Virus record (IMG/VR): IMGVR_UViG_3300045988_154953
Length of the DNA: 64,000 bases
Reading direction: 5' to 3' (one strand)
DNA from: a virus
Position numbers and translations under genes: made by a program. The notes below the pieces were generated by a model. That model worked only from the letters and a program-made list of their open reading frames with translations, had not been told where the DNA came from and did no database searches. Shown here piece by piece: positions 2,322 to 54,175 of the stretch (position 1 is its first letter; the number at the start of each line of letters is the position of its first letter).

Positions 2322-2795
2322 ATGAAGTTAGATTTTGATTGTGTTAGAGATATTTTGTTATATGTTGAAGAGAATTCTGGATATCAAGATAATGATTCTG
2401 ATATGCCAAGTAAACACAAAGAAATACCACATGCACGTATTATTTCAGATTCATTTTTTTCAAAATATAACAAAGAAGATGCTGTTCACACACTTGAATT
2501 AATGATAAAAGAAGGTTTATTTAACTTTGCATCAAAACCAATTTATGATTCGAATAATAATTTGGCATATGCTCGTATTATAGGTCTTACCTGGTCTGGC
2601 CATGAACTTCTTGATAATATCAGAAATGATACTACATGGAATGCTGTAAAAGAAAAGACAAAGAAAGTTGGGAAAGTATCAATAAAGGCAATGGCTAGTG
2701 CTGCAAGCGCTCTCGCAACTGCAATGCTGACAGATCCCAATGCTATACAAAACTTCATGAACGGCGCACAGAATTTTATAGGTTCAATACATTAG
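2322..2795 (+). CDS. DUF2513-like (winged-helix type) hypothetical protein
   Basis: N-terminus MKLDFDCVRDILLYVEE resembles the DUF2513 family start; GGGAGGA RBS before the ATG at 2322. Confidence 0.5.
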   Translation: MKLDFDCVRDILLYVEENSGYQDNDSDMPSKHKEIPHARIISDSFFSKYNKEDAVHTLELMIKEGLFNFASKPIYDSNNNLAYARIIGLTWSGHELLDNIRNDTTWNAVKEKTKKVGKVSIKAMASAASALATAMLTDPNAIQNFMNGAQNFIGSIH

Positions 2796-26245: not shown

Positions 26246-28294
26246 TTAGATATATGATTTACGTTTCGGTGTTCTGATTGGGAGGAGAGATGCAAGATTA
26301 GTAGAAGGTTTACGTTTTCTATTCATAATAGATTTTCTACGTTCATCCATAAGAGCTTTTGCGGCTAATGCGGCTGTATACGCACGGTCGTCATGCATTT
26401 TATTCGCTTTTTCTGGTGTTAGCTCAAAAGAATCCTTACCAGATTCTCTTTTCTTTCGAACCATATTTACAAGTTCTTCTTTTAAAGCATCTATGTTTAC
26501 TAATGCCAATTCATCTTGCCAATCTAGTTTAATCACCTTAGTTTTTACAGATTGTACATGATTTAACTCTTCATCTAATTGTCTATCAAATTCTTCTTTT
26601 GATAATTTTAATCGTTTTAATCTATTAGTGATTTTTTCTTTTTCAGAATTCAATTTCTTTTCATCCACATCAAAAACTGTCAAATTTCCTTTTCCATCAT
26701 ATGGAGCAGTGAAGCTAATTTTGTCCTGATTCATTAATTCTATTAAGGCTTCATACATTTCAGATTTATATGCAGTAGGAGATATTAGATGAACTTTATC
26801 TACTGCATTAGGAAATTTTTTTACATAGTCAGCTGAATACTCTTTATCAATTAATCCTCTGTGTGTAATTCCCGCCTTGTCTGTCCAGTCCGGCATAAGA
26901 TAATCTGCGATATTTACACCGGAACCACCACTACCTGCATCAATAAAAACACCAACAATATTCCCATATGCATCTGCACCACCATTGTAATCAAGTATAA
27001 CTTGTTTTAAATATTCAACCTGATCTGGCGTTTGCATTGGTGATTTGGTTTTCTTTCCAACATCCACTAAATTAATACAATTAACTAATCGCATTCTTTT
27101 ATCAATAGATTCATCTGGCATTATATAATCATAAATTTCCCCAACCAATATAACGCTATTATCTCTACTTCTAGCAGGATCGTAACATATAACGAAACGT
27201 TTATCTCCTGTATCATTATATAGAAGAGGTTTTCTTATTTCTTCATTACGTGTAATAACACCTCTTTTTATAATCGCATTTGCACCAGCAGAAGTAGTAA
27301 ATTGACAATAATATTCTCGTCTGGCCTTTTCAGGATTTGTCCTCATTTCTGATTGAACAGTTGAACGAGACAGAAGAGGAGCAATCAATTCGCCATGTAA
27401 AGTAGGTTTAAATGCTAATTCACAATCTATATGTAATACACAAAAATCAGGATCGCCCATAATTTGCTTCTTTGCAAAATCTCGATATAAGGCAAAAAAT
27501 TTTGTATCTGTGCTTGAAGCAGAACTTATATAAATTTTCTGATATGGCATATCTTGTGGAAAACAACGCTGTCTAATAGGGTCAATTGATTTACCACTTT
27601 CATCTTTACCTGTTTTCATACTTCTGTTAACAGCAGCAAAAGCACCATAAACATTCATCATTTCTTCCGATAAGAAACCACTTTCATCAAAAACCACTGA
27701 GCCACGGTAACCTCGTTTGGCATCTATATTAGAATTCAACGTTTGTGTCATAGCACCATTATATAAAGAATAATTAAATCCATTAGACGAATGTGAGAAA
27801 CCATCACCTGCTGCATTTTTTATCTCAATTTCATTTTTAAATACTTTGCCTGTAGAACCTGTGAAAGTATCAATGTTATCATTTGCAAGACGCTCCAAAG
27901 TAGTAAATGTTTGCTCTGCCTGTGAACCACTACCACTAGCAATATATGTCCAGTTATTGTTAAAGCACATACCTTTAGACATAATAGATAAATCGATCAC
28001 TGTTGATTTTCCCCATCCACGAGTACATACTAATAATGAATTAGGACATATCCATGTTTTTTGGACTGCTAATGTCTGGCTATCAAGAAGTTCTATATTA
28101 AACATCAAATCAATGAATCGTACTGGATTGCATTGAAAGTATTTTTGCATTTTAGCTATTTCCAGCAAAGATTCAATTTTTCTTGTAGACATAGGATAAA
28201 CAATCGGTTTTACAAAAATTCCATAATCACTATAAAAATCTTTATCATAATCTAAACTAAAATCATCATTATATGGAAGTATTATCTGACTCAT
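26246..28294 (-). CDS. terL: Terminase large subunit
   Basis: Walker A-like CTRGWGKST, Walker B-like VVFDESGF, C-terminal nuclease-like region; start re-set to MSQIILP after GAGGAGG. Confidence 0.85.
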   Translation of the reverse strand: MSQIILPYNDDFSLDYDKDFYSDYGIFVKPIVYPMSTRKIESLLEIAKMQKYFQCNPVRFIDLMFNIELLDSQTLAVQKTWICPNSLLVCTRGWGKSTVIDLSIMSKGMCFNNNWTYIASGSGSQAEQTFTTLERLANDNIDTFTGSTGKVFKNEIEIKNAAGDGFSHSSNGFNYSLYNGAMTQTLNSNIDAKRGYRGSVVFDESGFLSEEMMNVYGAFAAVNRSMKTGKDESGKSIDPIRQRCFPQDMPYQKIYISSASSTDTKFFALYRDFAKKQIMGDPDFCVLHIDCELAFKPTLHGELIAPLLSRSTVQSEMRTNPEKARREYYCQFTTSAGANAIIKRGVITRNEEIRKPLLYNDTGDKRFVICYDPARSRDNSVILVGEIYDYIMPDESIDKRMRLVNCINLVDVGKKTKSPMQTPDQVEYLKQVILDYNGGADAYGNIVGVFIDAGSGGSGVNIADYLMPDWTDKAGITHRGLIDKEYSADYVKKFPNAVDKVHLISPTAYKSEMYEALIELMNQDKISFTAPYDGKGNLTVFDVDEKKLNSEKEKITNRLKRLKLSKEEFDRQLDEELNHVQSVKTKVIKLDWQDELALVNIDALKEELVNMVRKKRESGKDSFELTPEKANKMHDDRAYTAALAAKALMDERRKSIMNRKRKPSTNLASLLPIRTPKRKSYI

Positions 28295-29579
28295 CAGAAC
28301 CAACCTCCTCAATGTTTTCATCCTCTGATTCATCGGAAAATACAGAATATAATTGTTTTAAATCCCTTAAATTAGGTTTTGTATCTATATTTTGTTCTTC
28401 GATGTAATCTTTCAAATCTATATTTTCTTGCAACAAAATACGATTTATTTCTTTATAAGAATCACGTTCTTTTCGAAGTACTTGATTATCTTGACGCATT
28501 TCAGCAACCATATCTGACCAATCAGATTCATCCAAAGCTAATTGCTTCATTATAGACGCATCACTTATTTCCTGAACTTGCTGCATGCCTCTACAAGTTG
28601 CTATATCAAATCCGTTAACACGGCCATCTCTAAGATTTAAGTCTTTTATTTTCTTAATTTTACCTGTCCAAGTGTTTTCGCCTTTCTTAGCATTTTTATT
28701 ATTTAATAAAGAAATACAACTTTCTTTGGCCAAACTTGTAATGGTACTTGTTAATTTTTGTTTACTGTCTTGGAGAGATTTGATTGTTGCAGAATTTTTA
28801 TCAAGATTTTTGTAATCGGACATTAATTGAGCAATATTATTATCAATTTTAGAAATTTGTAAGAATCCACGAACAATAGAAATAGCAGAAGCATTACGCA
28901 TCATATCATCATTTTCATCACCACCGGCATCCAATAATCCTAATAATTGAGAATACAAAAATGGTTGATCTCCGATAGATTCATGTTCAAAAGGATCGTA
29001 TCCCAACAATCGTGTAACATCTTTTTTGTTTTTTGTGTAATCGTCATATGTATCTATTCCAGCATGTTCTTCTATAATTGTTTTTGAATCTTTTTCGTCT
29101 TCGTACACAACTTTCTCTTTAAACATGTCAGAATCTTCCCATGTCATACCAATATAATTCACCATAGCAACATTTTTTATATAGGCATTCCATGGATTAT
29201 GTTTGACTTTCCCAGCAACTAAATTTTCAGATTCTTGTACACTTGAATCCCATAAACTATATAAAAATGGTTTATTTAATAACTTAAGAGCAGCGCATAC
29301 AGAATCTTTTGTTGGTTCATGTTCTTCACCATTTTTATCTACTCTAAGTGCAATTTTTCGTACACATTCCACGCAAATTGGTGTTACACCAGTTTTATTA
29401 TTTGGATCTGTACTTACATAAAATTTTCCTTTATCTTTTAATGTATCGCAACATTGACACCTTGAACTATTTTTTAATTTCTCTAAATCTGATTTTAATT
29501 TTTCGTTTTCATATTTCAGTTGAGCAGCTGTTAATTTCTTAGGTTGCTCAGATTTTGCTGTAGCCAAATTAACAGCCAC
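28269..29579 (-). CDS. Zinc-finger/coiled-coil protein upstream of terL (small terminase role possible but unsupported)
   Basis: 436-aa ORF; CQCC...CVEC motifs; exact start uncertain (GTG abuts the RBS, TTG 4 codons downstream). Confidence 0.5.
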   Translation of the reverse strand: MAVNLATAKSEQPKKLTAAQLKYENEKLKSDLEKLKNSSRCQCCDTLKDKGKFYVSTDPNNKTGVTPICVECVRKIALRVDKNGEEHEPTKDSVCAALKLLNKPFLYSLWDSSVQESENLVAGKVKHNPWNAYIKNVAMVNYIGMTWEDSDMFKEKVVYEDEKDSKTIIEEHAGIDTYDDYTKNKKDVTRLLGYDPFEHESIGDQPFLYSQLLGLLDAGGDENDDMMRNASAISIVRGFLQISKIDNNIAQLMSDYKNLDKNSATIKSLQDSKQKLTSTITSLAKESCISLLNNKNAKKGENTWTGKIKKIKDLNLRDGRVNGFDIATCRGMQQVQEISDASIMKQLALDESDWSDMVAEMRQDNQVLRKERDSYKEINRILLQENIDLKDYIEEQNIDTKPNLRDLKQLYSVFSDESEDENIEEVGSDESDNTSI

Positions 29580-29641
29580 CTCCTTTTATTTCAATTTGAA
29601 CATCTCACCACTAAAGCCATGTGATTCTTAGTTGTAAAAAA

Positions 29642-29669
29642 AAGAACTATATCATTTGATATAGTTCTT
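29642..29669 (-). terminator. Strong intrinsic terminator at the end of the tRNA/ncRNA block
   Basis: 12-bp perfect stem AAGAACTATATC-attt-GATATAGTTCTT followed on the minus strand by eight T. Confidence 0.85.
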
Positions 29670-30668
29670 TCAGCTTATTTAGTGGACTCGAACCACGCTT
29701 ATCCCCAACGCCATACTTCATATCATATATTACAATCTGGCCATACATTTTTTCAGATACAAAGTGCAAGGATTTGAACCTTGTAAATAAGCTCTGAATC
29801 GTCATCCAGAAAAGGCGATAGAGTAGTGACGACCTACTCAGGATTAAGACCGGTATGCATCCCAGTTCGAAATCTTTGGACACGGTTTATCGCATAGAAT
29901 TGGTGGTGACGAGCCACCAAGAGATACCCATGTTGTCATCATAGGGCAGTGGGTGTGTAACCCAAGTAGAATTAAAAATATATCATCCTAAAAGTACCCA
30001 ACTCAGATGATTTACGTCCTATAGTAACGCATAGTTATCTAGGAGATGTGAATCGCTTTCCGCAATTTCTCCATACTTTTTTGTTTTTCTTTTATTTGCT
30101 AACCTTCGCACAAAATCGTTGAAAATACTAAATATACGTGTATCGGCCTAGTTCTATGCTGATCATACACCCGATACTCCTTCGCTGTCCTGGTGGGGAT
30201 CGAACCCACAACATACAGATTAACAGTCTGTCGTTCTACCATTGGACTACAGGACAATAATTTTGGTAAATAAGGTTGCACAATAATATTAATATGTACA
30301 ACCTTCACTAGCTCAAATCTGGATTACTGTACGCAGCGCCCCAGGAAAAATCTCGAAGATTTTTGTTCAGTATTTTTCACAATAATCGTAATATCCAGTT
30401 ATACTAACCGCCCCATGAGGACAGTATCAGACTCGAACTGATATCTATTATTGTTATTATTAAAAACGGCCTTTCGCCAAAATAACTGCTACTCTTATAT
30501 ACTTCGTGCACATTCGCCTCTTATGATCTTTCGGGGAAACATTAGAGTAGCAGTAAAACTATATAGTAAAATTAGATCATACTATAAGTCTATATAATAA
30601 AGCCAAACATTTTACTGCCTGTTATCCTGCACATATGGCCGACAGTATGGCGTTTAGCGATCCTCCGA
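29670..30668 (-). other. ORF-free, hairpin-rich segment containing tRNA-Asn and three T-arm-like hairpins (structured RNA candidate)
   Basis: No credible CDS across about 1 kb. T-arm-like hairpins at 29682..29696, 29767..29783 and 30426..30442. 9-nt inverted repeat 29673..29681/29784..29792. 7-bp hairpin 29900..29920. 11-bp inverted repeat 30485..30495/30544..30554. Confidence 0.45.
30185..30256 (-). tRNA. tRNA-Asn (anticodon GTT)
   Basis: Hand-folded cloverleaf: 7-bp acceptor TGTCCTG/CAGGACA, anticodon stem ACAGA/TCTGT with loop CTGTTAA, T arm GTGGG-TTCGATC-CCCAC. Confidence 0.85.
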
Positions 30669-31661
30669 TTATAAATTTTTATTAATCCATTTTTGTAAAG
30701 CTTTTACAGTTTCTTTACCCATAGATCCATCCTGAGTAACATCTAAGAATTTCTGTAATGCAATAACTGATTGTTTACCAAATAAACCATCAACTGTTGT
30801 ACCAATCTTTTTTTGTAAAGCTTTTATTAATTGACTTCCAGCTTTATAGTTAGAATCTTTGAATTTCCAACTATTTGTCTTAGCAGCTGATAAATACTTT
30901 CTATTTGAAGATGGCTGATTGCTGATAATACCATCTGCTGCCGTTTTAAAAATTTTCTGTAAAGCTTTAGTGGTATCAACACCCCATGAACCATCCACAG
31001 TAATAGATTCTTTCTTTCTCGCACTTTCAGAAGATATAGAAGAGTTAATATTAAGAGATGTTTTTTTCAAAAGAGATTCATCATTCAAATAATTAACATC
31101 TACATTTCCAGATATACCTGACACTTTACCACTTTCAGAATATTGATGGATAGCATAACCTTTATTATTTGTACCGGTATAATGAGCCATCCATTCTACA
31201 TATTTTCCACATATACTTTCATCTACAAAACGTCTTTTATAATCTGGATTATAATAAACACCAGCTTTATGTCCTTTGGATTGAATATAATCACAAAATG
31301 TTTTGGTAAATTCATTGAATAATGTTTTAGTAATAGTTATTCCATTTTTCTTTGCATAATTTACAGAGTCATATTCAAAATCATAAAAGATTGGAAGAGT
31401 AATTTTATAATTTTTAATTAGATCAATACATCCTTTTGCTTCTTCTAATGCTTGCTTCTTGTTTAGAGCATAAGAAAACCAATATATTCCAACGGGAATT
31501 CCTGCTGCAATAGCACCTTTTATATTCTGTTCAAAACAGTCGTCTTTATGTACTTGTCCATATCCAGCACGAATGATTGCAAAACTAATTCCATCATTTT
31601 TAACTTTTGTCCAGTTAATCGATTTTTGATGACTGGACACATCTATCCCTTTGATTGCCAT
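30669..31661 (-). CDS. Endolysin, GH25 muramidase with C-terminal peptidoglycan-binding repeats
   Basis: MAIKGIDVSSHQKSINW...FAIIRAGYG...GIYWFSYA GH25 signature; C-terminal DG..G..T..ALQK repeats. Confidence 0.85.
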   Translation of the reverse strand: MAIKGIDVSSHQKSINWTKVKNDGISFAIIRAGYGQVHKDDCFEQNIKGAIAAGIPVGIYWFSYALNKKQALEEAKGCIDLIKNYKITLPIFYDFEYDSVNYAKKNGITITKTLFNEFTKTFCDYIQSKGHKAGVYYNPDYKRRFVDESICGKYVEWMAHYTGTNNKGYAIHQYSESGKVSGISGNVDVNYLNDESLLKKTSLNINSSISSESARKKESITVDGSWGVDTTKALQKIFKTAADGIISNQPSSNRKYLSAAKTNSWKFKDSNYKAGSQLIKALQKKIGTTVDGLFGKQSVIALQKFLDVTQDGSMGKETVKALQKWINKNL

Positions 31662-51934: not shown

Positions 51935-52656
51935 AAACAAGTTAAGAACTGGTCAATAGTTCTTACGTCATTATATCACATCTGACCAGTACTTGACAAC
52001 CATTGGATAAAATCCTATCCGATGGTAGGCGGTAAGCCTCTGCCATGAAACACTGGTATACTTTCTGCTTGGTAGGTCGTAAAACATCTACCGCAATAAA
52101 GGTGTTGTTCTTTGACAACTTAATAGCCGTTTCATCTTTTTTAAGATGATAATACTTGTCTCGGTATGACAAAAGACAAGGAATTCCATGAGTAGGGATA
52201 AACGAAAATGGTACGGGAATGTTATGCTTACGGGTGTAGTATGTCTCGGACACTAGAAATAGTGGGCGTGGTGTAGCCGACAAGCTGGCCAATGCAATTC
52301 GCTGGTAATAGGTGATAGCAATTAGGGCAATGTTATACACAAAAAGTCTGCAAAATTCACGGTGGTAAATGGGCGGTTGTAGTCTTGTAATATTGCAAGC
52401 CCCGCAAAAAGTGATAAAAATAATCCGTGAAAAGTAGTAGAAACTTTTGTAAATAATAACATTGACTATCGGTGATAGGTCAATACATCTTTCTAATAGC
52501 TCTTTTTTTGAGAAGCTATGGGCGCTTAAAAACGAATAACATTAAATGTAATGTTACCGTTGACGGTTCAAAGTCCGTATGAGAAAAACAGATGACATTT
52601 TAATTTTATTTTCTGCCGATGTCCCCGGCTAGAATAGGGATAGAAAGGGGCATATT
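51935..52656 (+). other. About 720-nt ORF-poor, G+C-richer leader or ncRNA downstream of P2
   Basis: No plus-strand ORF of 60 aa or more; hairpins at 51943..51965, 52461..52484 and 52538..52555; the first CDS starts at 52657. Confidence 0.45.
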
Positions 52657-53463
52657 ATGCTGTGTAACTATATTAAGAACGTGGAGAACCAGGAAGTAAG
52701 AGCAACTTTAACAGATGCTATCACATGGGAAAAATGCGACATGCTGTTAACTCTTAATGCTGAGTCATTAGCAAAACAGGAGAAAATCCTGTCAAGCAAA
52801 GAATCCAGCGAAGAGGATAAAAAAGCCGCTCAGGCCAAAGTTGACAAGTTGACCGCTGAGAAAGATAAACTTGTCAAAGAGCAGTCGGAAGTAGCAGACG
52901 TTTATAAATCTGTTTTGGCTGCTATTGCTGGGGCTAAAAATGAATATATCTCTAACGATGAGACGGCAGCCCGCAACATTCTTAGGCTGTCAAGTTGTGA
53001 TGATAACAAGAATTTTTTCAAGCTTGCTATCATCACTTCAGAAACTTTTGAAAGTTTCTATGACGGCATGGTTCAATTGCATGATACATGCTCTGAATCC
53101 ATCGCTGACAATGGGCTTAGGACTTATTCAGATGCTGATAATAAAGTGGCATCTGAATTGATGCTTAATGTCCAGAAAACACTTAGGGGCATGTTGTCTA
53201 TCCCTGTTGAAAATGACTATACAAAAAAATGTGTAGTCAAAATCAACAAACAGGACATGAACATTATCCATGAGTGTTTTGTTAGCGGTGTTTCCGTTGA
53301 CATCACTAAGGATAAAGAGGGTAAAACTAAGTCTGTTGACGGTTTATCATTCAGATATGCCATCAACAAAAAGACAAAAAGAGACGGTACTGTTGAATAT
53401 AATGGTATCCGTTTCAAAGAAACATTAGCAAAAATTGTTTTTGCTAAACTGTTTTCAAAATAA
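52657..53463 (+). CDS. Hypothetical protein (first early-arm gene)
   Basis: 268-aa ORF, AAAGGGG RBS. Confidence 0.6.
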   Translation: MLCNYIKNVENQEVRATLTDAITWEKCDMLLTLNAESLAKQEKILSSKESSEEDKKAAQAKVDKLTAEKDKLVKEQSEVADVYKSVLAAIAGAKNEYISNDETAARNILRLSSCDDNKNFFKLAIITSETFESFYDGMVQLHDTCSESIADNGLRTYSDADNKVASELMLNVQKTLRGMLSIPVENDYTKKCVVKINKQDMNIIHECFVSGVSVDITKDKEGKTKSVDGLSFRYAINKKTKRDGTVEYNGIRFKETLAKIVFAKLFSK

Positions 53464-53495
53464 TTGCAGACTTAATTGTTAATTAAGTTTGCAAA

Positions 53496-53544
53496 GGGAT
53501 GGCTCTGGTGAGCTTTTATCATGGTTCGATTCCATGACGTCCCA
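53496..53544 (+). ncRNA. tRNA-like element lacking an anticodon arm, copy 1
   Basis: Acceptor GGGATG/CGTCCC, D-like hairpin GCTC-TGGT-GAGC, T arm CATGG-TTCGATT-CCATG, discriminator A; 33 nt after a stop codon. Confidence 0.5.
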
Positions 53545-53580
53545 TTTCTATAAATCCGCACCTATGAAAGGGGTATTTTT

Positions 53581-54059: not shown

Positions 54060-54063
54060 TGTA

Positions 54064-54108
54064 AGGACGGCTGGTGCTGTAATATGAGTTCGATTCTCAT
54101 ACGTCTGT
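54064..54108 (+). ncRNA. tRNA-like element lacking an anticodon arm, copy 2
   Basis: Acceptor GGACG/CGTCT, GC-TGGT-GC, T arm ATGAG-TTCGATT-CTCAT; four of five T-stem pairs differ from copy 1 but stay complementary; 5 nt after a stop codon. Confidence 0.5.
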
Positions 54109-54175
54109 TTTGGAACTGTAAATGCAAACTAAAAATATTACGCACCTATGCGTAAAATAGGGGATTGGAGTAAAT

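What the first reader, a model, noticed from the sequence alone, without database searches (positions are those of the whole stretch)
29670..30668. About 1-kb ORF-free structured segment with tRNA-Asn and three orphan T-arm-like hairpins
Only one canonical tRNA (Asn, 30185..30256) lies between the strong terminator at 29642..29669 and the endolysin gene. The region also carries three hairpins with perfect T-loop-like sequence in minus sense:
- GTGG-TTCGAGT-CCAC at 29682..29696;
- CAAGG-TTCAAAT-CCTTG at 29767..29783;
- ATCAG-TTCGAGT-CTGAT at 30426..30442.
I could not extend any of these into a cloverleaf. A 9-nt inverted repeat (29673..29681 with 29784..29792) encloses the first two in a 120-nt unit. 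Other stems are at 29900..29920 (7 bp) and 30485..30495/30544..30554 (11 bp). The options are non-canonical or intron-containing tRNAs, decayed tRNA genes, or a large structured ncRNA. Large ornate RNAs of the ROOL/GOLLD type are known to sit next to tRNAs in phages of Firmicutes.
Basis: partly seen in the sequence, partly recalled or inferred. Interest (0 to 1): 0.62.

Follow-up and report, generated by a model that had tools for sequence, protein, structure and literature searches.

The report
Mosaic small-RNA island in gut phage
The 1-kb gene-free stretch is not one giant RNA or a set of broken tRNAs. It is a string of separate small folded RNAs, including a real tRNA, a rearranged tRNA look-alike, and a copy of a small RNA that in gut bacteria sits beside an abortive-infection toxin gene, so the phage may use it against that defence.

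Summary
The stretch has no credible ORF, is G+C-enriched, and holds one canonical tRNA-Asn. It carries three T-arm hairpins on the minus strand where about 0.05 are expected, plus the stated inverted repeat and stems.

It is not a ROOL/GOLLD-type RNA and holds no intron-bearing tRNAs: the Rfam, tRNA, YrlA and ARAGORN intron searches were all negative. Relatives show a mosaic whose parts recombine independently:
- **Module 1:** a 57-nt two-helix hairpin with strong covariation.
- **T-arm at 30425-30443:** part of a 76-nt stem-closed, circularly permuted tRNA-like domain. The order is variable loop, T arm, closed acceptor hairpin, D arm, as in YrlA Y RNAs. One other lineage keeps it through compensatory changes.
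- **Module 2:** a covarying 69-nt RNA fused to that domain. In Lachnospiraceae it is a stand-alone sRNA gene directly downstream of AbiD/Abi_2 genes. The phage copies have no such gene, so it is a candidate antitoxin-RNA mimic.
- **tRNA-Asn**, followed by a conserved structured core of about 150 nt.
- **Unit h:** a lineage-specific 122-nt stem-closed unit with the other two T-arm hairpins. It is unusually complementary to module 1.

All functions are inferred. This scan has noted antitoxin-RNA mimics in other phages before.

The parts
30602..30666 (-). Module 1. A conserved GGAGGAUC leader is followed by a 57-nt two-helix hairpin (outer helix GCUAAAC/GUUUGGC, inner helix ACUGUC/GGCAGU). The conserved unpaired motifs are AACGCCAU and GUGCAGGAUAA. 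It starts 3 nt after the endolysin stop codon.
   Evidence: Eleven distinct homologues come from viral and metagenome contigs. All 143 cells (100%) form standard pairs and 6 of 13 pairs change on both sides. None of 500 shuffles reaches this, and slid controls fall to 42% or less. There is no Rfam hit.
30455..30590 (-). Region B. It holds an AU-rich hairpin (30557-30590), a long branched hairpin closed by the 11-14-bp stem (30485-30554), and a small hairpin GGC-GAAAG-GCC (30468-30478). The small hairpin's 5' side reads GGCGAAAG (30471-30478), which fits the YrlA motif GNCGAAN0-1G.
   Evidence: Fold z-score is -2.6. The region is 87% conserved in L107, with the compensatory change GGC/GCC to GAC/GUC in the small hairpin. 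The motif definition is from Chen et al. 2014, PMC4201824. Its match here could be chance, at about 2% by my estimate.
30379..30454 (-). 76-nt stem-closed, circularly permuted tRNA-like domain.
   Evidence: It is read directly from the sequence. L115:5434-5512 keeps it, with changes on both sides in the closing stem (UA to AU, CG to GC) and in the T stem (UA to CG, CG to AU), and one mismatch. A T arm followed by a closed acceptor hairpin was found nowhere else in 1.05 Mb of held sequence. Model R2 finds only the window, L117 and L115. The cloverleaf model lies 4.7 kcal/mol above the MFE.
30304..30372 (-). Module 2, a 69-nt RNA: GAAC, then hairpin AAAAAUC-loop-GAUUUUU, then a 4-5-bp helix enclosing a tetraloop hairpin, then the conserved tail AGAUUUGAGCU. 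It is a homologue of an sRNA gene that lies just downstream of AbiD/Abi_2 genes in Lachnospiraceae.
   Evidence: Model R1 scores it at 84.2 bits. Sixteen members are 97.1% paired, with 6 pairs changed on both sides; no shuffle of 500 reaches the observed percentage paired or covariation score, and 1 of 500 reaches the count of such pairs. In the bacterial copies a sigma-70-type promoter ends about 10 nt upstream and a strong terminator follows. An intact Abi_2 gene (Pfam E 1e-18 to 4e-22; PADLOC AbiD E about 1e-21) lies 50-80 nt upstream on the same strand in L093, L094 and L096. L084 has one cut by the locus end, and L097 has a deleted remnant. No Abi_2 gene is found in the phage loci or in this genome. 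No Rfam family matches the window copy or lies within 1.5 kb of the bacterial copies.
30272..30305 (-). Terminator-like hairpin AAGGUUGUAC...GUGCAACCUU with a weak U tail, between module 2 and tRNA-Asn.
   Evidence: Inverted repeat I16. In L117 both arms differ (30278-30281 and 30296-30299) and the loop is 4 nt shorter, while the rest of the region is nearly identical. I did not check pair by pair that the changes compensate.
30185..30256 (-). Canonical tRNA-Asn (anticodon GUU).
   Evidence: ARAGORN and Rfam RF00005 at 68.2 bits. It is conserved in L117, L108 and L107.
29794..30184 (-). Region g, non-coding RNA downstream of tRNA-Asn. Its 3' part (29815-29964) is a conserved structured core.
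   Evidence: Identity is 87% to L108 over 30259-29807 and 90% to L107 over 29970-29784, while the flanks diverge. RNAalifold predicts 40 pairs. Two change on both sides (UA to CG; AU to GC in two sequences) and several change on one side. There is no Rfam hit and no other homologue.
29672..29793 (-). Unit h. A 10-bp closing stem AGCUUAUUUA/UAAAUAAGCU encloses T-arm-like hairpin 2 (29767-29783), a long hairpin ACUUUGUAUC...GAUAUGAAGU, a D-loop-like stretch CGU-UGGGGAUAA-GCG, and T-arm-like hairpin 1 (29682-29696). The last abuts the 3' strand of the closing stem, as a T arm abuts the acceptor stem in tRNA.
   Evidence: Inverted repeat I14 and the fold. The acceptor-type pairing is 7 of 7 Watson-Crick at a total length of 118 nt. 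Only one chance case longer than 89 nt occurred in 711 kb of related loci. The unit is present only in the window and L117, where it is identical. It is absent from L107 and L108. The tRNA, YrlA and R2 models do not see it. Three collinear segments are antisense to module 1, with a duplex energy of -42.1 kcal/mol against a genome background of mean -16.3, sd 4.2 and minimum -31.2 over 1525 windows.
29633..29670 (-). Intrinsic terminator that ends the non-coding block. A 13-14-bp stem GAAAGAACUAUAUCA/UGAUAUAGUUCUUU is followed by U8. The RBS and start of the 436-aa ORF follow about 55 nt downstream.
   Evidence: I2, 100% complementary.

Best explanation
The segment is a phage island of small RNA genes read on the minus strand, downstream of the endolysin gene and ended by the terminator at about 29640. 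It is a string of separately folding, separately exchangeable RNAs rather than one molecule.

In 5'-3' order it holds module 1; a branched hairpin region; a 76-nt permuted tRNA mimic fused to module 2; a hairpin; tRNA-Asn; a conserved structured core of about 150 nt; and a species-specific stem-closed unit with two T-loop hairpins.

**Shown:**
- Modules 1 and 2, the tRNA mimic and the core are conserved in other phages in different combinations, and their helices covary.
- Module 2 is homologous to an sRNA gene that lies directly downstream of AbiD/Abi_2 abortive-infection genes in Lachnospiraceae.
- The phages carry the RNA without the protein gene.

**Inferred:**
- Module 2 acts as a decoy copy of the toxin's partner RNA and keeps an AbiD/F-type toxin inactive during infection. 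The models are RCd22/AbiFr with AbiF, and pseudo-ToxI of phage PhiTE.
- The tRNA mimic fused 6 nt upstream gives that RNA a tRNA-like handle, recognised by tRNA-binding enzymes or by the phage's own Ro-like protein, for stability, processing or delivery.
- The T-arm hairpins of the terminal unit are likewise tRNA mimicry, or else a leftover of it.
For: **Mosaic structure.** The 1-kb block is not conserved as a unit in 33 loci found through the neighbouring ORF. The slot next to that ORF holds different tRNAs in different relatives. Closer relatives keep different subsets:
- L117 keeps everything (97.6% identity).
- L108 keeps module 1, tRNA-Asn and region g, with tRNA-Trp in place of unit h.
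- L107 keeps module 1, region B and the conserved core (the 3' part of region g), with no unit h.
- L115 keeps module 1, the tRNA mimic and module 2.

**Covariation.**
- Module 1 is 100% paired, with 6 pairs changed on both sides.
- Module 2 is 97% paired, with 6 such pairs.
- The tRNA mimic has 4 such pairs between its two lineages.
- The core has 2.

**Link to AbiD/Abi_2.** Five of six copies outside phage islands abut an AbiD/Abi_2 gene or its remnant. The bacterial copies have their own promoter and terminator. No Abi_2 gene lies in this phage or in the phage loci.

**Related islands** carry other toxin-linked or orphan RNAs: the abiF motif in L039 (38.5 bits), drum RNA directly 5' of module 2, and a sub-threshold GOLLD.

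**Precedent.** The AbiF toxin is neutralised by direct binding of the ncRNA RCd22 (bioRxiv 10.1101/2025.04.15.648962).

**tRNA mimic.** Its order of arms matches YrlA (Chen et al. 2014, PMC4201824).
Against: - No transcript data. The promoter scan finds nothing above chance.
- No experiment links module 2 to the AbiD-like protein. The association rests on six loci, and the RNA lies downstream of the gene, unlike abiF/RCd22, which lie upstream.
- One bacterial copy (L098) has no Abi_2 neighbour.
- Module 2 was found in only 1 of 151 sampled genomes of that bacterial family, and that one was the seed genome itself.
- The tRNA mimic is known from only two lineages, and its cloverleaf is 4.7-5.6 kcal/mol above the MFE.
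- Unit h has no comparative support at all.
- Module 1, region B and the core have no functional lead.
Confidence: 0.6

Rival explanations
1. The whole segment is one large ornate RNA of about 1 kb (ROOL/GOLLD-like or a new class). Long-range pairing between its 5' end (module 1) and its 3' end (unit h) closes it.
For: G+C is raised across the block. The global MFE pairs the two ends. The module 1 / unit h duplex of -42.1 kcal/mol lies far outside the genome background. A tRNA is embedded.
Against: No Rfam family matches at E<=10. L107 and L108 keep module 1 but lack unit h and have no other partner for it. The interior is replaced piecemeal in relatives. Module 1 has its own covarying local fold, which competes with the long-range duplex. 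Module 2 is a stand-alone gene elsewhere. An internal terminator-like hairpin is present in both this phage and L117 although both of its arms differ between them.
Confidence: 0.08
2. The T-arm hairpins, above all the two in unit h, are debris of tRNA genes. On this view they are fragments left by recombination in a fast-changing tRNA slot and have no function of their own.
For: The slot next to the 436-aa ORF holds canonical tRNAs (Thr, Asn, Gln, Trp, suppressor CTA) in relatives. Unit h is confined to one species. L107 has the 5' arm of h followed directly by a terminator, which suggests an insertion or deletion event. Unit h contains inverted copies of pieces of module 1, which template switching could produce. 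The acceptor-like stem is AU-rich.
Against: Both T hairpins and the 10-bp closing stem of unit h are perfect. The T arm abuts the closing stem exactly as in tRNA. Such long T-arm-plus-acceptor units are essentially absent from 711 kb of related loci. For the third hairpin this rival fails: it sits in a domain kept by compensatory changes and has every tRNA-core nucleotide.
Confidence: 0.2
3. The 76-nt tRNA mimic, with the GGCGAAAG hairpin upstream, is a true Y RNA of the YrlA type. It would work as the RNA partner of the phage's Ro60-like protein rather than as a handle for module 2.
For: The order of arms (variable loop, T, acceptor-like stem-loop, D, closed by a stem) is that of YrlA, and a GNCGAAN0-1G motif lies 17 nt upstream. 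The genome encodes a 517-aa DUF2828 + DUF7788/vWA protein at 173632-175185, next to a cluster of tRNA-shaped RNAs. Earlier notes of this scan read that protein as Ro60-like.
Against: Rfam YrlA (RF02553) gives no hit here, even at E<=10 within this one genome. Pfam TROVE finds nothing in the genome. The candidate protein gene is about 130 kb away, whereas YrlA genes lie within 4 kb of Ro60 on the same strand. L115 keeps the domain but has no GNCGAA motif upstream. L107 keeps the motif hairpin but not the domain. The RNAs beside the Ro-like gene carry a different tag, a helix plus ACAGCAA, which is absent here.
Confidence: 0.15
4. The hairpins belong to unusual decoding tRNAs (intron-containing or armless) that standard tools miss.
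For: Relaxed ARAGORN settings give weak calls that overlap two of the hairpins: 'tRNA-Ile(aat)' at window 30417-30491 and 'tRNA-Arg(tct)' with a 93-nt intron at 29758-29936.
Against: Those settings produce 30-81 calls genome-wide, most of them inside genes. Default intron mode finds nothing here. The Rfam tRNA model has no hit at E<=10. None of the units has an anticodon stem-loop, and no Rfam family of any kind, group I introns included, matched at E<=10.
Confidence: 0.02

Closest known systems
YrlA-type bacterial and phage Y RNAs (Chen et al. 2014, RNA 20:1715, PMC4201824; Rfam RF02553)
   Same: Both have a tRNA-like module in permuted order, with a T stem-loop, then a closed acceptor-like stem-loop, then a D stem-loop, all closed by a helix. 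The tRNA-core nucleotides are conserved, including the 15:48 pair. A GNCGAAN0-1G-type motif lies upstream. Such RNAs occur in phages.
   Different: The Rfam model does not match. No TROVE protein is detectable by Pfam, and the only Ro-like candidate gene is about 130 kb away instead of within 4 kb. The upstream motif is not kept in the second lineage. The domain is embedded in a longer non-coding block and is fused to another conserved RNA (module 2) rather than forming the middle of a free Y RNA.
RNA antitoxins of AbiF/AbiD (Abi_2) systems: the abiF motif (Rfam RF03085) and RCd22 of C. difficile (bioRxiv 10.1101/2025.04.15.648962). The phage decoy precedent is pseudo-ToxI of phage PhiTE (Blower et al. 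2012, cited from my own knowledge).
   Same: In both cases a small structured RNA is encoded right beside an Abi_2-family gene in bacteria, and phages carry copies of the RNA without the toxin gene. A relative's island carries a bona fide abiF motif.
   Different: Module 2 has a different sequence and fold from the abiF motif, and no Rfam family matches it. It lies downstream of the gene with its own promoter and terminator, not in the 5' leader. Neither binding nor neutralisation has been tested, and the AbiD-like protein has not been shown to be toxic.
drum RNA (Rfam RF02958; Weinberg et al. 2017, PMC5737381)
   Same: It lives in the same kind of island. In four viral contigs drum ends 1-6 nt before module 2. 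Like module 2, it is reported to be linked to a nearby protein gene and to be followed by a terminator.
   Different: There is no drum RNA in this window (no hit at E<=10). Here the permuted tRNA mimic occupies the place of drum in front of module 2.
GOLLD and ROOL large ornate RNAs
   Same: The context is shared: phages of Firmicutes, next to tRNAs, gene-free and G+C-enriched.
   Different: Neither model matches at any threshold tried. The segment is not conserved as one unit, and its pieces are small (57-150 nt) and independently mobile.
tRNA-like processing signals (t-elements of plant mitochondria; mascRNA-type 3' modules)
   Same: Unit h ends with a T arm stacked on a helix formed with a distal 5' strand, directly before a terminator. 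This is the geometry that RNase P and RNase Z read.
   Different: The helix is 10 bp rather than 7. A second T-loop hairpin replaces the D arm, and a 56-nt hairpin replaces the anticodon arm. No cleavage data exist.

Membership tests
tRNA (decoding; Rfam RF00005) | Cloverleaf with an anticodon stem-loop, recognised by ARAGORN or the Rfam covariance model | tested here: not met
   Only tRNA-Asn 30185-30256 qualifies. There is no hit at the three orphan hairpins at E<=10. ARAGORN intron mode at its default threshold adds nothing in this region.
GOLLD / ROOL large ornate RNAs | Match to the family covariance model (RF02032, RF03087) | tested here: not met
   cmscan of 29500-30800 against all 4227 Rfam families at E<=10 lists neither family. 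The gathering-threshold scan of the window lists only tRNAs.
GOLLD / ROOL large ornate RNAs | Conserved as one long multi-domain unit across relatives | tested here: not met
   Relatives keep different subsets of the parts and replace the rest.
YrlA Y RNA (RF02553) | tRNA-like module with T, acceptor-like and D stem-loops in that order, closed by a helix | tested here: met
   Window 30379-30454. L115 keeps it through changes on both sides of four pairs. The feature definition is from PMC4201824.
YrlA Y RNA (RF02553) | GNCGAAN0-1G motif near the 5' end | tested here: inconclusive
   GGCGAAAG lies at 30471-30478, and L107 has GACGAAAG. The motif is absent upstream of the L115 domain and could arise by chance.
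YrlA Y RNA (RF02553) | Match to the Rfam covariance model | tested here: not met
   No match at this place at E<=10 in the whole genome. The best hits (19 bits or less) lie in the distant tRNA-like cluster.
YrlA Y RNA (RF02553) | Encoded within about 4 kb of a Ro60/TROVE gene on the same strand | tested here: not met
   Pfam TROVE finds nothing in the genome. The only candidate, a DUF2828 + DUF7788/vWA protein, lies at genome 173632-175185, about 130 kb away.
YrlA Y RNA (RF02553) | Bound by Ro60/Rsr; modified by TruB and DusA | not testable with these tools
   This needs immunoprecipitation and modification mapping.
RNA antitoxin of an Abi_2 (AbiD/F) toxin, type III-like | Conserved structured RNA encoded directly beside an Abi_2-family gene | tested here: met
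   Module 2 homologues lie 50-80 nt downstream of intact AbiD/Abi_2 genes on the same strand in L093, L094 and L096. L084 has a copy of the gene cut by the locus end, L097 has a remnant, and L098 has none.
RNA antitoxin of an Abi_2 (AbiD/F) toxin, type III-like | Match to the abiF RNA motif (RF03085) | tested here: not met
   There is no abiF hit in the window or around the bacterial module 2 copies. The motif is present only in the island of relative L039.
RNA antitoxin of an Abi_2 (AbiD/F) toxin, type III-like | The RNA binds the toxin and neutralises it | not testable with these tools
   This needs co-expression toxicity assays and binding assays.
drum RNA (RF02958) | Match to the covariance model | tested here: not met
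   There is no hit in the window at E<=10. Strong hits (55-71 bits) occur in related islands.

The most novel reading that the evidence does not exclude
The permuted tRNA mimic and module 2 form one composite phage RNA of about 150 nt. Its 3' half would imitate the partner sRNA of a host AbiD/F-type toxin and switch that defence off. Its 5' half would be a closed tRNA look-alike that recruits tRNA-handling proteins, or the phage's Ro-like protein, to stabilise, process or deliver the decoy. Module 2 would then define an undescribed class of Abi-linked RNA, encoded downstream of the toxin gene. Islands of this kind would be exchangeable RNA counter-defence kits (module 1, drum, abiF motif, GOLLD, tRNA mimics).
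Probability: 0.3. Interest if true: 0.75.

Novelty: new variant of a known kind. Interest (0 to 1): 0.55.

Why it matters
If the reading is right, uncultured gut phages of Lachnospiraceae carry cassettes of small RNAs that copy the RNA partners of bacterial abortive-infection toxins. That would add a second, structurally different RNA to the AbiD/F family beside the abiF motif, one placed after the gene rather than before it.

It also shows a YrlA-style permuted tRNA mimic outside a Ro60 locus and fused to another functional RNA. This widens the settings in which tRNA mimicry is used.

In practice, it yields four RNA motifs that matched no Rfam family (module 1, module 2, the T / acceptor / D domain, and the 150-nt core). 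It also yields a directly testable toxin-RNA pair. Finally, it cautions that gene-free, G+C-rich blocks next to phage tRNAs are not always single giant RNAs.

Tried and rejected
- **Rfam.** The scan at gathering threshold and at E<=10 found nothing but tRNA-Asn.
- **BLAST against deposited phages.** Only the tRNA matched.
- **Relatives found through the endolysin.** They were too distant (50% identity or less) to help.
- **Exact-pattern scans of IMG/VR.** Patterns for unit h, the 29900-29920 hairpin and the tRNA-mimic core gave no match.
- **nhmmer.** Regions B and g and unit h found nothing in any held locus or in the rest of the genome.
- **ARAGORN relaxed, intron, tmRNA and mitochondrial modes.** These gave many obviously spurious calls. 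Among them was a 'tRNA-Leu with 1184-nt intron' at window 52268-53544 that encloses an ORF. I rejected it.
- **Small ORFs.** None of those in the region has a PHROG match.
- **Drum-like RNA in front of module 2.** The drum consensus bears no resemblance.
- **Pairing of the module 2 tail AGAUUUGAGCU with the T arm of the mimic.** L115 does not keep it, and the bacterial copies lack the mimic, so I rejected it.
- **Conservation of the module 1 / unit h duplex.** It is absent in L086, L039, L089, L107, L108 and L115.
- **Family-wide survey with model R1.** It hit 1 of 151 genomes, which was the seed genome itself, so it gave no new contexts.
- **PDB sequence search with the AbiD-like protein.** No hit.
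Full report
**Setting.** The window is part of a 193-kb IMG/VR virus record (G000:C1:9199-73198, minus). All genes around the finding lie on the window's minus strand. A GH25 endolysin (30669-31661) lies upstream, and a 436-aa ORF of unknown family (28269-29579) lies downstream. Module 2 of the region also occurs in Lachnospiraceae genomes, so the host is probably a member of that family. That is an inference.

**Check of the observation.**
- The stretch 29670-30668 has only 30-78-aa ORFs, none with a PHROG match.
- ARAGORN and Rfam find one tRNA, Asn(GTT), at 30185-30256.
- A first-order Markov model of the window gives about 6 such hairpins per 64 kb on both strands, or 0.047 per kb per strand. 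Three orphans in one kilobase therefore have a Poisson probability of about 2e-5.
- The inverted repeat is 10 bp, and the other stems are present.
- G+C rises to 0.40-0.445 against about 0.30 in the flanking genes.

**Not a known RNA, and not one RNA.**
- cmscan of 29500-30800 against all Rfam families at E<=10 gives nothing credible beyond the tRNA.
- The tRNA model and the YrlA model, run over the whole genome at E<=10, give no hit at any of the three hairpins.
- Thirty-three loci found through the 436-aa ORF share no similarity with the block except the tRNA and one 72-nt piece.
- In those loci the slot just upstream of the ORF holds varying canonical tRNAs: Thr, Asn, Gln, or a CTA suppressor.

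A metagenome scan seeded on module 1 then gave four informative relatives:

| Relative | What it keeps |
|---|---|
| L117 | Everything; 97.6% identical over all 1121 nt |
| L108 | Module 1, then about 665 nt of unrelated sequence, then tRNA-Asn and region g at 87%, then a terminator and tRNA-Trp where the window has unit h |
| L107 | Module 1 and region B at 87%, and the core of region g at 90%; it ends with AGAGCUUAUUUA followed directly by a terminator |
| L115 | Module 1, then the T-arm domain and module 2 at 80% |

The block is thus a mosaic of independently exchangeable parts. That speaks against a single large ornate RNA.

**Module 1 (30602-30666).**
- It is a 57-nt hairpin of two helices with conserved unpaired motifs (AACGCCAU and GUGCAGGAUAA), preceded by GGAGGAUC.
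- In eleven distinct homologues every cell is paired and 6 of 13 pairs change on both sides. No shuffle of 500 reaches this.
- In the L083/L086 group it lies about 450 nt upstream of a drum RNA that directly precedes module 2. The order module 1, variable middle, module 2, tRNA is therefore syntenic with the window.
- Its function is unknown.

**The third T-arm hairpin is part of a permuted tRNA mimic (30379-30454).** Read 5' to 3', the domain runs as follows:
- closing-stem strand ACAAUAAU
- four-base variable loop
- T arm AUCAG-UUCGAGU-CUGAU
- closed acceptor-like hairpin of 8 bp, ACUGUCCU-CAU-GGGGCGGU
- UA
- D arm with loop AACUGGAUA
- G
- closing-stem strand AUUAUUGU

The domain is 76 nt long and carries U8, A14, A15 with U48, G18 G19, A21, G53-C61 and U54 U55 C56 A58.

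L115 keeps the domain. It has changes on both sides at two pairs of the closing stem and two pairs of the T stem, one mismatch, and a 10-bp closing stem. A descriptor search for a T arm followed by a closed acceptor hairpin found no other good case in 1.05 Mb. A covariance model of the domain finds only the window, L117 and L115.

The order of arms is that of YrlA Y RNAs (Chen et al. 2014, PMC4201824). A GNCGAAN0-1G-type motif (GGCGAAAG) lies 17 nt upstream, in a small hairpin that covaries in L107.

Membership in YrlA is not supported, however:
- The Rfam model does not match.
- Pfam TROVE finds nothing in the genome.
- The only Ro-like candidate, a DUF2828 + DUF7788/vWA protein, is about 130 kb away.
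- L115 lacks the upstream motif.

Chen et al. warn that two adjacent tRNAs can imitate this pattern. Here the two acceptor strands pair with each other over 8 bp and a covarying stem closes the domain, so that artefact does not apply.

**Module 2 (30304-30372).** It starts 6 nt after the mimic. It consists of GAAC, an invariant A/U hairpin, a 4-5-bp helix enclosing a tetraloop hairpin, and the tail AGAUUUGAGCU.
- Pattern scans found copies in twelve viral contigs (of several lineages), and in six bacterial records, one of which (L095, Aureispira) is a chance match to the hairpin alone.
- Sixteen members are 97.1% paired, with six pairs changed on both sides. No shuffle of 500 reaches the observed percentage paired or covariation score, 1 of 500 reaches the count of such pairs, and slid controls stay below 60%.
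- In the bacterial genomes the RNA is a free-standing gene. A TTGACA-17-TAnAAT promoter ends about 10 nt before GAAC, and a strong terminator follows the tail.
- In L093, L094 and L096 it lies 50-80 nt downstream, on the same strand, of an intact 325-333-aa gene. That gene matches Pfam Abi_2 (E 1e-18 to 4e-22) and PADLOC AbiD (E about 1e-21). L084 has the same gene cut by the locus end, L097 has an internally deleted remnant, and L098 has none.
- No known Rfam RNA, the abiF motif included, lies within 1.5 kb of these copies.
- The phage copies and this phage genome have no Abi_2 gene.

Abi_2/AbiF toxins are held in check by a directly binding ncRNA (RCd22; bioRxiv 10.1101/2025.04.15.648962). 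Phage PhiTE escapes ToxIN with a pseudo-ToxI RNA (my own knowledge). The most likely role of module 2 in the phage is therefore as a decoy copy of the toxin's partner RNA. This is inference.

Related islands add support. They carry a bona fide abiF motif (L039) and drum RNA. Weinberg et al. report that drum is linked to a nearby protein gene (PMC5737381). Earlier notes of this scan, which I did not test, read drum as an RNA-antidote candidate.

**tRNA-Asn and region g.** The hairpin 30272-30305 differs from L117 on both arms. Downstream of the tRNA, 29815-29964 is nearly invariant in L107 and L108 while the flanks diverge. It folds into three hairpins and a three-way junction, with two compensatory pairs. 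It matches nothing known.

**Unit h (29672-29793), with the other two T-arm hairpins.**
- A perfect 10-bp stem closes a junction that carries hairpin 2, a long hairpin, a D-loop-like stretch and hairpin 1.
- Hairpin 1 abuts the 3' strand exactly as a T arm abuts the acceptor stem.
- Such long T-arm-plus-acceptor units are essentially absent from 711 kb of related loci.
- This genome has four more at 175-176 kb. The Rfam tRNA model scores two of those four full-length, at 51.8 and 43 bits. Those carry a helix+ACAGCAA tag that unit h lacks.
- Unit h exists only in the window and in L117, where it is identical. There is therefore no comparative test of it.
- No model (tRNA, YrlA or my own R2) recognises it.

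An unexpected feature is that three collinear segments of unit h are antisense to the conserved unpaired parts of module 1, which lies 926 nt upstream: AUCCUUGCAC, GUAUGGCC and AGUAUGGCGUU. The duplex energy is -42.1 kcal/mol. Across 1525 same-strand genome windows the mean is -16.3, the sd 4.2 and the minimum -31.2. Relatives that lack unit h have no such partner.

Unit h may be a tRNA-like end module, a partner or sponge of module 1, or a recent rearrangement product built from inverted copies. I cannot decide between these.

**Verdict.** The best account is a phage small-RNA island made of exchangeable modules. Two of them are tRNA mimics, and one is a homologue of an AbiD-linked bacterial sRNA. 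The structures are well supported for four modules.

This scan had already noted phage antitoxin-RNA mimics and mosaic RNA loci on other DNA, and tRNA-shaped RNAs elsewhere in this genome. The present region extends that theme with new motifs. I rate it a new variant of a known kind, of moderate interest.

Noticed in passing
L091 (G000:C1:174800-178000), genome minus strand 175376-177424: A second cluster holds ten T-arm hairpins. Four units have perfect 7-bp acceptor stems but are 114-126 nt long; three of these have canonical D and T arms and one (the 117-nt unit) an atypical D arm. Each carries a 35-50-nt insert with a hairpin plus U[UAG]ACAGCAA. The Rfam tRNA model scores two of them full-length, at 51.8 and 43 bits. 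A 517-aa DUF2828 + DUF7788/vWA protein is encoded just downstream. Earlier notes of this scan read these as partner RNAs of a Ro60-like protein.
   Followed up: partly
window 53496-53545 and 54060-54110, plus strand: Two tRNA-like elements have acceptor, D-like and T arms but no anticodon arm (for example GGGAUG-GCUCUGGUGAGC-UUUUA-UCAUGGUUCGAUUCCAUGA-CGUCCC). ARAGORN does not call them. An earlier follow-up in this scan has already treated them.
   Followed up: partly
L017 6001-7275 and L031 6001-7215: The homologues of the 436-aa ORF in these relatives carry 7 and 12 in-frame TAG codons. A tRNA with anticodon CTA sits directly upstream. These relatives are therefore TAG-recoded, whereas the window's genes are open under table 11.
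   Followed up: partly
L107 about 1795-1875 and L108 about 2160-2240 (opposite strand to the island RNAs): A conserved 26-aa hydrophobic ORF (MNNKLDVVMIGLEVLQVVIAIVKMKY) with a strong RBS lies inside the stretch that replaces region B, the mimic and module 2 in these relatives. It looks like a type I toxin-like peptide.
   Followed up: no
L107 1545-1590; L108 about 2380-2425 (minus); L080 7665-7735: Another shared motif, AUAUCUAGGUUGUAAGAAUUAUAUUCUAGUUUGAGGAUAU-like with the core YAGGUUGUAAGRAU, recurs in several islands. In the L080 group it lies directly upstream of module 2. It is not present in the window.
   Followed up: no
L039 1305-1341; L104 11528-11961; L086 571-682: The RNA islands of related phages carry an abiF RNA motif (38.5 bits, above the gathering score), a sub-threshold GOLLD (88.6 bits, E 7e-22) and drum RNAs (55-71 bits).
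   Followed up: partly
L086 875-945 and L115 5632-5705: A tRNA-like unit of about 68 nt lies downstream of module 2. It has acceptor GUCAUUA/UGAUGGC, D arm GUAU-AAGUGGAUA-GUAC and T arm UUGG-UUCGAAU-CCAA, but no proper anticodon arm. ARAGORN does not call it.
   Followed up: no
L098 7409-7924 (minus): The one bacterial module 2 copy without an Abi_2 neighbour lies convergent to a DUF2399/JetD_C-like (Wadjet-related) gene. That is another defence context.
   Followed up: no
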